Shown here piece by piece: positions 9,738 to 13,652 of a stretch of DNA of 64,000 nt; the stretch's first letter is position 1; each line of letters opens with the position of its first letter. Made by a program: the position numbers. The DNA comes from Octopus sinensis (Eukaryota), in assembly GCF_006345805.1 (NCBI RefSeq), contig NC_042999.1, positions 67,022,001 through 67,086,000 on the forward strand, given 5' to 3'.

Positions 9738-12700
9738 ATACATTCGAGCGTGGCCATTGCCAGTGCCATCTGACTGGCTCCTGTGCCAGTGACATGTAAA
9801 AAGCACCATTCGAGCATGGTCGTTGCCAGTGCCACCTGACTAGCCCTTGGGGCAGTGGCACATAAAAAACACCCACTACACTCTTGGGGTTATAGAAAAC
9901 CTTGCTAGAGCAGATTGGAGCCTGGTACAGCCTTCTGGCTTGACAGTCCACAGTCAAACCATCCAACCCATGCCAGCATGGAAAGCAGACGTTAAACGAC
10001 GACGACGATGATGGTGATGATGATGATGATGATAACGACAATGACGATGATGATGATGATGACGACAACGACGATGATGATGATGATGACAACAACGATG
10101 ATGATGGCGACGACGACGACAACAGCGGTGATGATGATACTAGTCATCTAGTATATGTAACTTGTGTATACTATGAAGTGTGTGAAGGCACATGGCTTAG
10201 TAGTTAGGGTATTTGGCTTATAGTTATAAGGTTGTGGGTTTGATTCCTGGTAGTATGTTGTGTCCTTGAGCAAGACACTTTATTTCATGTTGCTCCAGTC
10301 CACTCAGCTGGCAAAAATTAAGTTGTACCTGGAATTCAAAGGGGCCAGCATTATCACATTTGGTGTGCCATGCTGAATCTCCCTGAGAACTACATTAAGT
10401 ACAGATGTGATTGTGTAGTACTCAACCACCTGCATGTTAATTTTAAGAGCAGGCTGTGCCACAGTCCAGATCAACAGGAACACAAATCATCATAACCAAC
10501 GAAGTGCCAGTTACTATGAAGTGCATATATTACATCTAGTATATAGTATGTGTGAAAGAGTATGGCCTTGTGGTTGAGGCATGGGCTGGCAATAGTTAGA
10601 TCATGGGTTCAATCCCCAGGCCAGGTCACATGTAGTTTACTTGAATAAGTTACTTCATTTTACATTGTGCCAATCAATTTAGTTAAGACGAGTCCCAGTA
10701 AAGTACTGGGGTAGTTGTGCTATTTTAGATGTTCCACAGGGTCATTGACACCTCCTCAGACTTTCCAGTGGTCATTGGCCCTACTTCAGGCACTGGAAAG
10801 GGCCAAGGGATCTCAATGTCTGCTTACAATTGCACAGATGTCAAAACCAAAGCTTGAATGCATGGTACATGATACCAGGTTATACTGAAAATATGAGAGG
10901 CATACATTTAATCTATTGTGTGAAATAATCTAGTACATACCATGTACTACATCTGCTATGTAATATGCACTAGTTAATATATAGCTTAACAAGTACATAG
11001 ATCATGGAGTATAAACTATAAATGTATACACACACAGACTCAGACACACAAACACATGCATGCACACACACACACACACACATACACATACACATATATA
11101 TGTATATATATATATATATATATTAACAATTAAGGAACGGCCATAATAGGCCATTCACCCACTAGAAATAACAGCCAAAGCTTCTACCGCAAATAAAGAT
11201 TAATTCCGTAAACAGGAGAAAATTAAAAAAAACATTTACCCTGTAATTTCTTGTACGGTATACCGTTTCATCCGCTGTTTAATGGTAAACTAACCTGATT
11301 AAATTAAATCAAGCCAATCTTCCATAAGCCCTCGGATTCTTCAGCAAGAAATAGCTCAAGTCGGAACAGATATTTACACGAGGCATACCCAATCTTGCCA
11401 AGGCAATATCTGACCTAAAATTTTCAAATCGTCGCACTCGCGCCAAATTTATCGGCAGCAATAAATATCAGCCGTCGATTCCATTACGGAATTAACCAAA
11501 AAATTCATAATTAATCAATATAGGGTGGCAAGGAAAATTTTGTGGAATTTTTTGCCACCAGCGGCCCAGTGGGAAAAAATTAAATAGTCATAGACCATTT
11601 TTAAGTTCAACATTAACAATTAAGGAACGGCCATAATAGGCCATTCACCCACTAGAAATAACAGCCAAAGCTTCTACCCGCAAATAAAGATTAATTCCGT
11701 AAACAGGAGAAAATTAAAAAAACATTTACCCTGTAATTTCTTGTACGGTATACCGTTTCATCCGCTGTTTAATGGTAAACTAACCTGATTAAATTAAATC
11801 AAGCCAATCTTCCATAAGCCCTCGGATTCTTCAGCAAGAAATAGCTCAAGTCGGAACAGATATTTACACGAGGCATACCCAATCTTGCCAAGGCAATATC
11901 TGACCTAAAATTTTCAAATCGTCGCACTCGCGCCAAATTTATCGGCAGCAAATAAATATCAGCCGTCGATTCCATTACGGAATTAACCAAAAAATTCATA
12001 ATTAATCAATATAGGGTGGCAAGGAAAATTTTGTAGAATTTTATTGCCACCAGCGGCCCAGTGGGAAAAAAATTAAATAGTCATAGACCATTTTTAAGTT
12101 CAACATTAACAATTAAGGAACGGCCATAATAGGCCATTCACCCACTAGAAATAACAGCCAAAGCTTCTACCGCAAATAAAGATTAATTCCGTAAACAGGA
12201 GAAAATTAAAAAACATTTACCCTGTAATTTCTTGTACGGTATACCGTTTCATCCGCTGTTTAATGGTAAACTAACCTGATTAAATTAAATCAAGCCAATC
12301 TTCCATAAGCCCTCGGATTCTTCAGCAAGAAATAGCTCAAGTCGGAACAGATATTTACACGAGGCATACCCAATCTTGCCAAGGCAATATCTGACCTAAA
12401 ATTTTCAAATCGTCGCACTCGCGCCAAATTTATTTTTTTTAATTTTCTCCTGTTTACGGAATTAATCTTTATTTGCGGTAGAAGCTTTGGCTGTTATTTC
12501 TAGTGGGTGAATGGCCTATTATGGCCGTTCCTTAATTGTTAATGTTGAACTTAAAAATGGTCTATGACTATTTAATTTTTTCCCACTGGGCCGCTGGTGG
12601 CAATAAAATTCTACAAAATTTTCCTTGCCACCCTATATTGATTAATTATGAATTTTTTGGTTAATTCCGTAATGGAATCGACGGCTGATATTTATTTGCT

Positions 12701-13652
12701 GCCGATAAATTTGGCGCGAGTGCGACGATTTGAAAATTTTAGGTCAGATATTGCCTTGGCAAGATTGGGTATGCCTCGTGTAAATATCTGTTCCGACTTG
12801 AGCTATTTCTTGCTGAAGAATCCGAGGGCTTATGGAAGATTGGCTTGATTTAATTTAATCAGGTTAGTTACCATTAAACAGCGGATGAAACGGTATACCG
12901 TACAAGAAATTATAGGGTAAATGTTTTTTTAATTTTCTCCTGTTTACGGAATTAATCTTTATTTGCGGTAGAAGCTTTGGCTGTTATTTCTAGTGGGTGA
13001 ATGGCCTATTATGGCCGTTCCTTAATTGTTAATGTTGAACTTAAAAATGGTCTATGACTATTTAATTTTTTCCCACTGGGCCGCTGGTGGCAATAAAATT
13101 CTACAAAATTTTCCTTGCCACCCTATATTGATTAATTATGAATTTTTTGGTTAATTCCGTAATGGAATCGACGGCTGATATTTATTTGCTGCCGATAAAT
13201 TTGGCGCGAGTGCGACGATTTGAAAATTTTAGGTCAGATATTGCCTTGGCAAGATTGGCTATGCCTCGTGTAAATATCTGTTCCGACTTGAGCTATTTCT
13301 TGCTGAAGAATCCGAGGGCTTATGGAAGATTGGCTTGATTTAATTTAATCAGGTTAGTTTACCATTAAACAGCGGATGAAACGGTATACCGTACAAGAAA
13401 TTACAGGGTAAATGTTTTTTTAATTTTCTCCTGTTTACGGAATTAATCTTTATTTGCGGTAGAAGCTTTGGCTGTTATTTCTAGTGGGTGAATGGCCTAT
13501 TATGGCCGTTCCTTAATTGTTAATGTTGAACTTAAAAATGGTCTATGACTATTTAATTTTTCCCACTGGGCCGCTGGTGGCAATAAAATTCTACAAAATT
13601 TTCCTTGCCACCCTATATTGATTAATTATATATATATATATATATATATAAG

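What the first reader, a model, noticed from the sequence alone, without database searches (positions are those of the whole stretch)
11115..13640. Divergent two-arm insertion with different permuted 3' ends in (TA)n, suggesting copying from a circular RNA
Seen: the left arm (~1310 bp, HHR on -) and right arm (~1200 bp, HHR on +) point away from a junction at 12432/12433. Each runs into (TA)n at a different point of the unit (..aattgttaat versus ..gattaattat), both TA-like microhomologies. The right arm starts ~21 nt downstream of the predicted cleavage site. Each arm is longer than a monomer and spans HHRs. Inference: both target strands primed reverse transcription at separate positions of a circular or multimeric template, giving rolling multimers joined head-to-head. 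This resembles the inverted structures known from Penelope insertions.
Basis: partly seen in the sequence, partly recalled or inferred. Interest (0 to 1): 0.75.

Follow-up and report, generated by a model that had tools for sequence, protein, structure and literature searches.

The report
Head-to-head ribozyme retroelement insertion in (TA)n
A small non-coding mobile element that carries a self-cutting hammerhead ribozyme sits in a TA microsatellite as two multi-copy arms pointing away from each other, which fits known Penelope-type insertion but does not show that the copied RNA was a circle.

Summary
Window 11122-12433 is 2.7 copies of a 491-nt unit on the minus strand. Window 12434-13629 is 2.4 copies on the plus strand. 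Copies are 98.5-100% identical, joined 5'-to-5', and (TA)n lies on both outer sides. Each unit boundary carries an intact type I hammerhead (5 sites), with a long insertion in helix II that keeps it below Rfam's cut-off.

The unit is non-coding, 36% GC and predicted to fold strongly. It fits the published animal "non-LTR retrozymes". Tandem plus inverted copies, an AT-rich or (TA)n target and internal starts of reverse transcription on both cut strands are all described for Penelope-like elements (PLEs).

Neither arm can be an inverted copy of the other, so a fold-back artefact or palindromic duplication is excluded.

The "circular RNA" headline is not specifically supported. The arm phases fit ordinary twin priming on one linear RNA of at least 5.2 units (a 55-nt internal gap, and a 5' end 21 nt from the ribozyme cut) at least as well.

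No other copy and no PLE gene lies in the window, and no animal genome collection was available. I rate it a new member of a known kind, of moderate interest.

The parts
11094..11123 (.). Left flank of the target microsatellite, (AT)15, preceded by (AC)n at 11028-11094
   Evidence: TRF; sequence
11122..12433 (-). Left arm: 2.7 head-to-tail copies of the 491-nt unit, sense on the minus strand. Its 3' end (unit position 131) abuts (AT)n; its 5' end (unit position 293) is at the central junction.
12434..13629 (+). Right arm: 2.4 copies, sense on the plus strand. Its 5' end (unit position 22) is at the central junction; its 3' end (unit position 237) abuts (TA)n.
12433..12434 (.). Head-to-head (5'-to-5') junction. 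No (TA)n and no filler lies between the arms. At most 1 nt (T) of exact microhomology.
   Evidence: sequence; match ends
11248..11350 (-). Type I hammerhead ribozyme copy; cut between 11254 and 11253 on the minus strand
11738..11840 (-). Type I hammerhead ribozyme copy; cut between 11744 and 11743 on the minus strand
12229..12331 (-). Type I hammerhead ribozyme copy; cut between 12235 and 12234 on the minus strand
12807..12908 (+). Type I hammerhead ribozyme copy; cut between 12902 and 12903
13297..13399 (+). Type I hammerhead ribozyme copy; cut between 13393 and 13394. Core CUGAAGA...GAAA...A, helix I 8 bp, helix II 5 bp plus a long branch, helix III 4 bp.
12903..13393 (+). One complete cut-to-cut monomer (491 nt) that could be released and circularised if transcribed. 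The minus strand holds two more (11744-12234 and 11254-11743).
13627..13702 (.). Right flank of the target microsatellite, (TA)39, followed by a 5'-truncated SINE (13703-13840) and more (AT)n (13842-13891)

Best explanation
This is one young insertion of a non-autonomous, non-coding retroelement with a hammerhead ribozyme in every unit (an animal 'non-LTR retrozyme', 491-nt unit) into a (TA)n microsatellite.

Shown: the anatomy.

Inferred:
1. A Penelope-like element (PLE) enzyme encoded elsewhere in the genome cut both strands of the AT-rich target.
2. Each free 3' end primed reverse transcription inside the retrozyme RNA, at two AU-rich, predicted unpaired loops (unit positions 131 and 237).
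3. Each cDNA ran for more than two units on a template longer than one unit.
4. The two cDNA ends were joined 5'-to-5' by end joining with almost no homology.

On the template I lean to one linear, incompletely self-cleaved RNA of at least 5.2 units copied by twin priming (about 0.4), over a monomeric circle copied by rolling-circle reverse transcription (about 0.3). The locus alone cannot settle this.
For: Anatomy: (two arms, opposite strands, 5' ends central, 3' ends in (TA)n).

Retrozyme features:
- Five full-length hammerhead matches with an intact core.
- The active three-helix fold is the unconstrained minimum-energy fold of the 118-nt segment, -36.3 kcal/mol.
- GC is 36% and the longest open frame in a trimer is 68 codons.
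- The circular fold is -145.8 kcal/mol; 0 of 100 dinucleotide shuffles reach it, z = -5.7.

Priming sites:
- Both lie in 12-mers with 11 of 12 A/T (top 8.8% of unit positions each) and have 2- and 3-nt TA overlaps (joint chance 0.018).
- Both lie in predicted unpaired loops, with mean unpaired probability 0.82 and 0.75 (top 2% and 7% of positions).

Target: perfect (TA) runs of 5 repeats or more cover only 2.3-2.4% of the window.

Single event:
- There is no (TA)n at the central junction.
- All 11 sequence variants among the copies are private to one copy (3 substitutions, 8 run-length indels); none is shared between arms.
- Neither arm can be derived from the other (lengths and phases).

Literature:
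- PLE insertions are partial tandems, often with an adjacent inverted 5'-truncated copy, and some clades prefer (TA)n (Craig 2021, passages).
- A purified PLE protein cleaves and extends both strands, prefers AT-rich DNA, starts reverse transcription internally and uses unprocessed multimeric RNA (Frangieh 2024, main text).
- Retrozymes are proposed as PLE passengers (Cervera and de la Pena 2020, Discussion; Li et al. 2026 preprint).

Linear lean: missing unit positions 238-292 (55 nt) between the right arm's 3' end and the left arm's 5' end match the 'two inverted fragments with an internal deletion' of twin priming (Meyer 2010, passages). The right arm ends 21 nt from the ribozyme cut. One-sided chances are 56/491 and 22/491, with a product of about 0.005. 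These figures are post hoc, so read them as roughly 0.01-0.02.
Against: - There is only one locus. No other copy of the unit is in the 64 kb and no animal genome could be searched.
- No reverse transcriptase or GIY-YIG endonuclease was found among 189 of 189 open frames of 75 codons or more. The PLE helper is therefore assumed, not seen.
- Target-site duplications cannot be read in a microsatellite.
- The 30-40 bp 'tail' typical of PLE insertions is not seen.
- The hammerheads score below Rfam's gathering cut-off.
- The phase coincidences that favour a linear template were noticed after the fact.
- A linear template needs five intact ribozymes left uncut in one RNA, whereas published work finds monomeric circles to be the abundant form.
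- Read support for the junction could not be checked.
Confidence: 0.6

Rival explanations
1. The template was a monomeric circular retrozyme RNA. Both cut target strands annealed to different AU-rich loops of the circle, and each reverse transcriptase went round it more than twice (rolling-circle reverse transcription).
For: - Each arm is longer than a unit, and the 3' ends sit at two different internal positions, neither at the ribozyme cut.
- All copies are near-identical with only private variants, as expected if one monomer was copied repeatedly.
- The monomer is predicted to be a stable, highly paired circle.
- Cervera and de la Pena 2020 report abundant retrozyme circles and propose that a target-primed circle gives tandem cDNA (Discussion).
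Against: - Internal initiation and tandem products are documented for PLEs on linear multimeric RNA, so neither feature needs a circle.
- A circle explains neither 5' end, whereas a linear multimer explains both approximately (55-nt gap; 21 nt from the cut).
- A homogeneous source array would also give identical copies.
Confidence: 0.3
2. A single direct array of about 5.2 units was inserted in the ordinary way. Part of it was later inverted at the DNA level, with a 55-bp loss.
For: The phases are the same as for twin priming: right-arm 3' end at 237 and left-arm 5' start at 293. (TA)n tracts are fragile.
Against: One inversion breakpoint would have to fall exactly on the boundary between the element and (TA)n. 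A breakpoint inside the microsatellite would leave (TA)n at the central junction, and none is there.
Confidence: 0.08
3. Two separate insertions of the same family landed in opposite orientation at the same microsatellite, or the second landed at the edge of the first.
For: (TA)n appears to be a preferred target, and PLE enzymes also cut within their own copies. The left arm ends at an AT-rich site (..AAATTTAT).
Against: No (TA)n lies between the arms, and the left array does not continue beyond the right arm. The arms are as alike as copies within an arm, which indicates equal age.
Confidence: 0.07
4. An assembly artefact: a fold-back or chimeric long read, or a mis-join of two arrays.
For: Inverted tandem repeats are hard to assemble. 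8 of the 11 variants are run-length differences typical of long-read error.
Against: - A fold-back read gives mirror-image arms. Here the arms start at different unit positions (293 versus 22), end at different positions (131 versus 237), differ in length (1312 versus 1196 nt) and carry different private variants.
- The flanks are not mirror images. Apart from interspersed repeats and microsatellites, the only long flank match is a 226-bp direct repeat.
Confidence: 0.06
5. The insertion was short (about one unit or less per arm), and each arm grew later by unequal crossing-over. This is the satellite-style local amplification discussed by Li et al. 2026.
For: Li et al. propose local amplification of PLE-derived terminal sequence into tandem repeats (Discussion).
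Against: Unequal exchange needs at least a partial duplicate to start. Both arms would have had to expand independently and very recently to similar sizes without any shared variant.
Confidence: 0.08

Closest known systems
Animal non-LTR retrozymes (Cervera and de la Pena 2020, NAR, PMC7229834; Li, Clavereau and Pollet 2026 preprint)
   Same: Head-to-tail repeats of a few hundred bases, each with a type I hammerhead. Low GC, non-coding, with a strongly paired predicted circle. The proposed life cycle is transcription, self-cleavage, circularisation, then reverse transcription by a helper and tandem cDNA insertion.
   Different: - The 491-nt unit is longer than the ~170-400 nt typical range quoted there.
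- Helix II of the ribozyme carries a branch of about 66 nt, so the Rfam score is sub-threshold.
- The two-arm head-to-head form and the (TA)n target were not found in the retrozyme papers. 'Inverted', 'microsatellite' and 'target site' have 0 occurrences in the 2020 paper. 'Inverted' appears only in reference lists in the 2026 preprint and the 2020 review.
Penelope-like element insertion architecture (Craig et al. 2021, PMC8557442; Frangieh et al. 2024, PMC11167929)
   Same: Partial tandems with an adjacent inverted 5'-truncated copy. AT-rich or (TA)n targets. Both strands cleaved and extended. Reverse transcription starts inside the RNA. Hammerheads are present in most PLE clades.
   Different: - There is no reverse transcriptase or endonuclease gene in the element or in the window.
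- No 30-40 bp tail is seen.
- The two start sites are 106 nt apart rather than adjacent.
- The PLE ribozymes described in print are minimal variants, whereas this one has a 4-bp helix III.
- The (TA)n bias is reported for Naiads, which lack hammerheads. A microsatellite bias whose repeat type the passages I read do not name is attributed to Neptune.
Twin priming and dual priming of LINE-1 (Meyer et al. 2010, PMC2837659; Ostertag and Kazazian 2001, recalled and not read here)
   Same: Two cDNAs primed from the two strands of one target. 3' ends outward and 5' ends joined in the middle. An internal deletion at the inversion point and little or no junction microhomology.
   Different: A different enzyme family. 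There is no poly(A) and both primings are internal. The template is a multi-unit repeat or a circle. Target-site duplications cannot be read.
Plant LTR retrozymes (Cervera, Urbina and de la Pena 2016, PMC4918200; seen only as a search listing and abstract)
   Same: Non-autonomous retroelements with hammerheads that give circular RNAs.
   Different: The plant elements have type III hammerheads, LTRs, a primer-binding site and a polypurine tract, higher GC and a Gypsy-type helper. No LTRs are present here; a primer-binding site and a polypurine tract were not looked for.

Membership tests
Animal non-LTR retrozyme | A type I hammerhead ribozyme in every repeat unit | tested here: met
   Five full-model Hammerhead_1 matches, one at each of the 5 unit boundaries. 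The core and three helices are intact, and the ribozyme region is identical in all copies except one 1-nt run-length difference. The score of 21.4 bits is below Rfam's gathering score of 34.
Animal non-LTR retrozyme | Head-to-tail tandem repeats of a few hundred bases, dimers upward | tested here: met
   2.7 and 2.4 copies of a 490/491-nt period. The unit is longer than the usual ~170-400 nt but within the 150 to >1000 nt range the authors give for the expressed circRNAs in their Discussion.
Animal non-LTR retrozyme | Low GC and no coding capacity | tested here: met
   GC is 36%. The longest stop-to-stop frame in a trimer is 68 codons.
Animal non-LTR retrozyme | No LTR, primer-binding site or polypurine tract | not tested
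   No terminal repeats other than the unit itself are seen. Primer-binding site and polypurine tract motifs were not searched.
Animal non-LTR retrozyme | Predicted highly self-paired circular RNA | tested here: met
   Circular MFE is -145.8 kcal/mol with 60% of bases paired. 0 of 100 dinucleotide shuffles are as low, z = -5.7.
Animal non-LTR retrozyme | Expressed, self-cleaved and circularised in vivo | not testable with these tools
   No RNA data.
Animal non-LTR retrozyme | Many dispersed copies in the genome, co-occurring with PLEs | not testable with these tools
   There is one locus in 64 kb and no PLE gene in the window. No animal genome collection was open.
Penelope-like element insertion (architecture only) | Partial tandem plus an adjacent inverted 5'-truncated copy | tested here: met
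   compared with the description in Craig 2021.
Penelope-like element insertion (architecture only) | AT-rich or microsatellite target | tested here: met
   (AT)15 and (TA)39 lie on the two sides. (TA)n covers 2.3-2.4% of the window. This is a single observation.
Penelope-like element insertion (architecture only) | A 30-40 bp 'tail' extension at one end | tested here: inconclusive
   No extra sequence lies between the unit and (TA)n at either end. The two ends differ by 106 nt of unit sequence, which could be a longer analogue of the tail or could be chance.
Penelope-like element (autonomous) | An open reading frame with reverse transcriptase and GIY-YIG endonuclease | tested here: not met
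   None in the unit. 0 of 189 window ORFs match either domain. The element is therefore not a PLE itself, and at most a passenger of one.
Penelope-like element (derivative) | Sequence similarity of the unit to a PLE pseudo-LTR of the same genome | not testable with these tools
   No PLE sequence from this genome was available.
Twin priming (mechanism) | Two inverted fragments of one template, 3' ends outward, with an internal deletion at the inversion point | tested here: met
   Right-arm 3' end at 237 and left-arm 5' start at 293, so 55 nt are missing. The chance of so small a one-sided gap is 56/491.
Twin priming (mechanism) | Target-site duplications bounding the whole insertion | tested here: inconclusive
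   Both flanks are (TA)n, so a duplication cannot be recognised.
Hammerhead ribozyme type I (RF00163) | Rfam gathering score | tested here: not met
   21.4-21.5 bits against 34. The loss comes from the long insertion in helix II shown in the alignment.
Hammerhead ribozyme type I (RF00163) | Conserved core (CUGANGA, GAAA, cut after a non-G) and helices I-III, open at helix I | tested here: met
   Core CUGAAGA / GAAA / A then C. Helices of 8, 5 and 4 bp. This fold is the minimum-energy fold.
Hammerhead ribozyme type I (RF00163) | Self-cleavage | not testable with these tools
   Needs in vitro transcription.

The most novel reading that the evidence does not exclude
The locus is a fossil of one integration event in which a Penelope-type enzyme cut a (TA)n tract and both DNA ends primed rolling-circle reverse transcription of a hammerhead circular RNA at two accessible AU-rich loops. 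That would be the first insertion-level evidence for how animal ribozyme circles return to the genome, and it would tie retrozymes to PLE machinery by the scars of integration rather than by co-occurrence.
Probability: 0.3. Interest if true: 0.65.

Novelty: new member of a known kind. Interest (0 to 1): 0.4.

Why it matters
Animal retrozymes are thought to ride on Penelope-like elements. In the papers read here, the support is co-occurrence, shared hammerheads and, in frogs, sequence similarity to PLE ends.

This locus adds a different kind of evidence. A retrozyme insertion bears the integration scars described for PLEs: a (TA)n target, tandem plus inverted copies, and two internal starts of reverse transcription, one on each strand.

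It also gives a concrete test for an open question, namely whether the integrated template is a circle or an uncleaved multimer. The test is to map end phases and the order of variant monomers across all copies in the genome.

A read-through transcript of the two arms would fold into a hairpin of about 1.2 kb. That could feed small-RNA silencing of the family. This last point is inference only.

Tried and rejected
- **Rfam at gathering threshold, whole window:** 0 matches. The hammerheads appear only with the E-value threshold.
- **Rfam E-value search, whole window:** 227 matches. The 150 listed are almost all microsatellite look-alikes of miRNA families. The hammerhead rows fell among the 77 not shown, so this gave no information on further ribozymes outside the arms.
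- **Other copies of the unit in the window:** none.
- **A PLE gene in the window:** all 189 stop-to-stop frames of 75 codons or more were scanned against Pfam. Only a mariner-type transposase fragment and a sub-threshold Tc1-type HTH matched.
- **Mirror-image flanks, which a palindromic duplication or fold-back artefact would predict:** not found.
- **Snap-back or strand-switch copying of one arm from the other:** rejected on arm lengths and phases.
- **External copies:** The phage, plasmid and E. coli collections are irrelevant.
- **Taxon:** not determined. It is an animal-type repeat landscape. My recollection that the SINE with a (GAT)n tail resembles cephalopod SINEs was not tested.
- **Supplements:** none were opened. 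Supplementary Figure S9 of Cervera and de la Pena 2020 (their integration model) and the preprint's supplementary tables may bear on the circle-versus-multimer question.
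Full report
**What is there**

The window has no N. Between a compound (AC)n(AT)n tract and a (TA)n tract lie two arrays of one repeat unit.
- 11122-12433: period 491, 2.7 copies, 99% matches.
- 12434-13629: period 490, 2.4 copies, 99% matches.

blastn of one full unit against the window finds 7 strong matches (98.5-100% identity). All lie in 11122-13629, minus strand on the left and plus strand on the right. 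The other 29 listed matches are 27 nt or shorter with E of 0.089 or more. The family therefore has no other copy in these 64 kb. Inverted-repeat search shows the arms pairing at 95-100% over up to 399 nt.

I cut the arms at the ribozyme cleavage site and aligned the pieces. With position 1 as the first base after the cut:
- The right arm runs from position 22 through two unit boundaries to 237.
- The left arm runs from 293 through three boundaries to 131.

The arms meet 5'-to-5' at 12433/12434. One T is ambiguous, and there is no filler and no (TA)n between them.

**The ribozyme**

At Rfam's gathering threshold the window has no match. With an E-value threshold on 11000-13800 there are 17 matches. 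Five are Hammerhead_1 (RF00163), each over the whole model (1-45) at 21.4-21.5 bits (gathering 34) and E 0.067-0.071. The other 12 are microsatellite look-alikes or other low-scoring chance matches. On a 161-nt stretch the E-value is 0.0041, and the alignment shows why the score is low: helix II carries a long insertion.

The core is intact (CUGAAGA, GAAA, cut after A, before CAAG). Helix I has 8 bp, helix II has 5 bp plus a branch, and helix III has 4 bp with a UAUA loop. This three-helix fold is the unconstrained minimum-energy fold of the 118-nt segment, -36.3 kcal/mol. The ribozyme region is the same in all five copies except for one 1-nt run-length difference. Self-cleavage itself is untested.

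**The unit**

- It is 491 nt and 36% GC, and the longest stop-to-stop frame in a trimer is 68 codons.
- As a circle it folds to -145.8 kcal/mol with 60% of bases paired. None of 100 dinucleotide shuffles is as stable (mean -109.5, z = -5.7).

These are the features given for animal non-LTR retrozymes: type I hammerhead in each tandem unit, low GC, non-coding, highly paired circles (Cervera and de la Pena 2020, passages and Discussion). The unit is longer than their usual ~170-400 nt.

**The ends**

Both 3' ends abut (TA)n.
- The overlaps with the alternating tract are 2 nt (left) and 3 nt (right).
- Of 491 possible end positions, 96 have 2 nt or more and 26 have 3 nt or more, so the joint chance is 0.018.
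- Both ends also lie in 12-mers with 11 of 12 A/T, the top 8.8% of positions each.
- Both lie in predicted unpaired loops, with mean unpaired probability of the last 8 nt of 0.82 and 0.75. These rank in the top 2.0% and 7.1% in the circular fold and 2.9% and 8.1% in the linear fold.
- The two 5' ends show no such property.

Perfect (TA) runs of 5 repeats or more cover 1465 of 64000 bases, or 2.3%. A random landing inside one would be unusual, though this is a single event. These measures are correlated with one another, and the folds are predictions. Together they suggest that (TA)n DNA ends annealed to accessible AU-rich loops.

**What it is not**

- *Not a fold-back read or palindromic duplication.* Either would give mirror-image arms. 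Here the arms begin at different unit positions (293 and 22), end at different positions (131 and 237), and differ in length (1312 and 1196 nt). An inverted copy of the right arm starting at 293 could be at most 927 nt and would end at 237. An inverted copy of the left arm starting at 22 could be at most 1091 nt and would end at 131.
- *Variants are not shared.* All 11 variants among the copies (3 substitutions, 8 run-length indels) are private to one copy and none is shared between arms.
- *The flanks are not mirror images.* Apart from interspersed repeats and microsatellites, the only long similarity is a 226-bp direct repeat.
- *Two separate insertions are less likely.* They should have left (TA)n between the arms, or split the first array. 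Neither is seen.
- *A later DNA inversion is possible only with a coincidence.* Inverting part of one direct array gives the same phases as twin priming, but needs one breakpoint exactly on the element/(TA)n boundary.

**How it most likely arose**

Shown: two cDNA-like arrays, on opposite strands, each attached by its 3' (RNA-sense) end to one side of a (TA)n tract and joined 5'-to-5'.

Inferred: both 3' hydroxyls of a double-strand cut primed reverse transcription inward, and the two products were joined with almost no homology. For LINE-1 this geometry is known as twin priming (one RNA, two inverted fragments with an internal deletion) or dual priming (two RNAs) (Meyer et al. 2010, passages). 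The original Ostertag and Kazazian paper is recalled, not read here.

For the likely helper the match is closer.
- Craig et al. 2021 describe PLE insertions as partial tandems, often with an adjacent inverted 5'-truncated copy, and report a (TA)n bias in Naiads. They attribute a microsatellite bias, with the repeat type not named in the passages I read, to Neptune. They also list Naiads in cephalopods among many phyla (passages).
- Frangieh et al. 2024 show that a purified PLE protein cleaves and extends both strands and prefers AT-rich DNA. It starts reverse transcription at two sites inside the RNA without homology to the target, and uses unprocessed multimeric RNA. Ribozyme cleavage is dispensable (main text).
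- Cervera and de la Pena 2020 and Li et al. 2026 propose PLEs as the retrozyme helper, on the grounds of co-occurrence, shared hammerheads and, in Xenopus, similarity to PLE pseudo-LTRs.

No PLE gene is in this window. 189 of 189 frames of 75 codons or more were scanned. Two had any Pfam match, and neither was a reverse transcriptase or GIY-YIG domain. The helper is therefore inferred.

**Circle or multimer**

The 2020 paper already proposes that a target-primed circle would give tandem cDNA, so the idea is in print. Three features are expected from a circle:
- arms longer than a unit;
- permuted internal 3' ends;
- uniform copies.

All three are equally expected from PLE-style internal initiation on a homogeneous linear multimer.

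Two details fit a linear RNA better.
- The left arm's 5' start (293) lies just 55 nt downstream of the right arm's 3' end (237). This is as if the first reverse transcriptase stopped shortly before the site where the second had primed.
- The right arm's 5' end lies 21 nt from the ribozyme cut, as if it ran to a ribozyme-made 5' end.

The one-sided chances are 56/491 and 22/491, with a product of about 0.005. I chose the intervals and the arm assignment after seeing the data, so roughly 0.01-0.02 is fairer.

Against the linear reading, the RNA would be at least 2563 nt with five uncut ribozymes, while monomeric circles are reported as the abundant form.

I therefore hold the two-strand priming event at about 0.6. 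Within it I lean to a linear multimer (about 0.4) over a circle (about 0.3).

**Comparison and novelty**

The element passes the sequence-level tests for an animal non-LTR retrozyme. It is not a PLE, because it has no ORF. Its insertion matches PLE architecture except for the missing short tail.

In the searched library I found no paper that describes inverted retrozyme arrays or a microsatellite target for retrozymes.
- Retrozyme + Penelope + hammerhead + tandem: 15 papers.
- Twin priming + Penelope-like: 3 papers, none on this subject by title.
- Retrozyme + microsatellite: 6 papers.
- Non-LTR retrozyme + inverted: 2 papers, where 'inverted' occurs only in reference lists.
- A search for hammerhead or retrozyme papers on cephalopods found only Craig 2021 and unrelated work.

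Most of these papers were seen only as listings or abstracts, and supplements were not opened. I rate the locus a new member of a known kind, with a modestly new observation about its integration scars.

**What stayed unchecked**

- Other genomic copies, read support for the junction, empty alleles, expression and circularity, and the taxon.

Noticed in passing
window 9460-9685 and 14635-14860 (weaker partial matches at 16194-16386): A 226-bp direct repeat at 97.3% identity brackets about 5 kb that includes the retrozyme locus. The first copy runs straight into (TA)n plus a SINE. It may be a low-copy local duplication or an unknown short element.
   Followed up: partly
window 13703-13840, and about a dozen further places (e.g. 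15004-15141, 36856-36993, 36055-36192, 51136-51268): A SINE-like family with a (GAT)n tail gives 12 matches of 115 nt or more, counting the query itself. The copy next to the retrozyme is 5'-truncated and has (TA)n on both sides, so the same microsatellite took at least two insertions. My impression that it is cephalopod-like is recalled and untested.
   Followed up: partly
window 4523-4831 (+) and 34563-34868 (+): Relics of DNA transposons. One is a mariner-type Transposase_1 fragment (32.5 bits, E 8e-08). The other is a Tc1/Sleeping Beauty-type HTH (27 bits, below the cut-off of 43).
   Followed up: no
whole window, e.g. 22650-22760, 14050-14340, 15500-16000, 25950-26900, 29700-30400, 36315-36423: The window holds very dense compound microsatellites ((TA)n, (CA)n, (GAT)n). 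They produce many overlapping open frames on both strands and 200-odd spurious sub-threshold 'miRNA' matches in Rfam (mir-297, mir-466, mir-3149).
   Followed up: no
window 11122-13629: Because the arms are inverted tandem arrays offset by 271 nt, the locus is a quasi-palindrome. The nearest pairing arms (12064-12216 and 12432-12584) are 215 nt apart. A read-through transcript would form a long hairpin, and the DNA may be unstable, which fits a young insertion.
   Followed up: no
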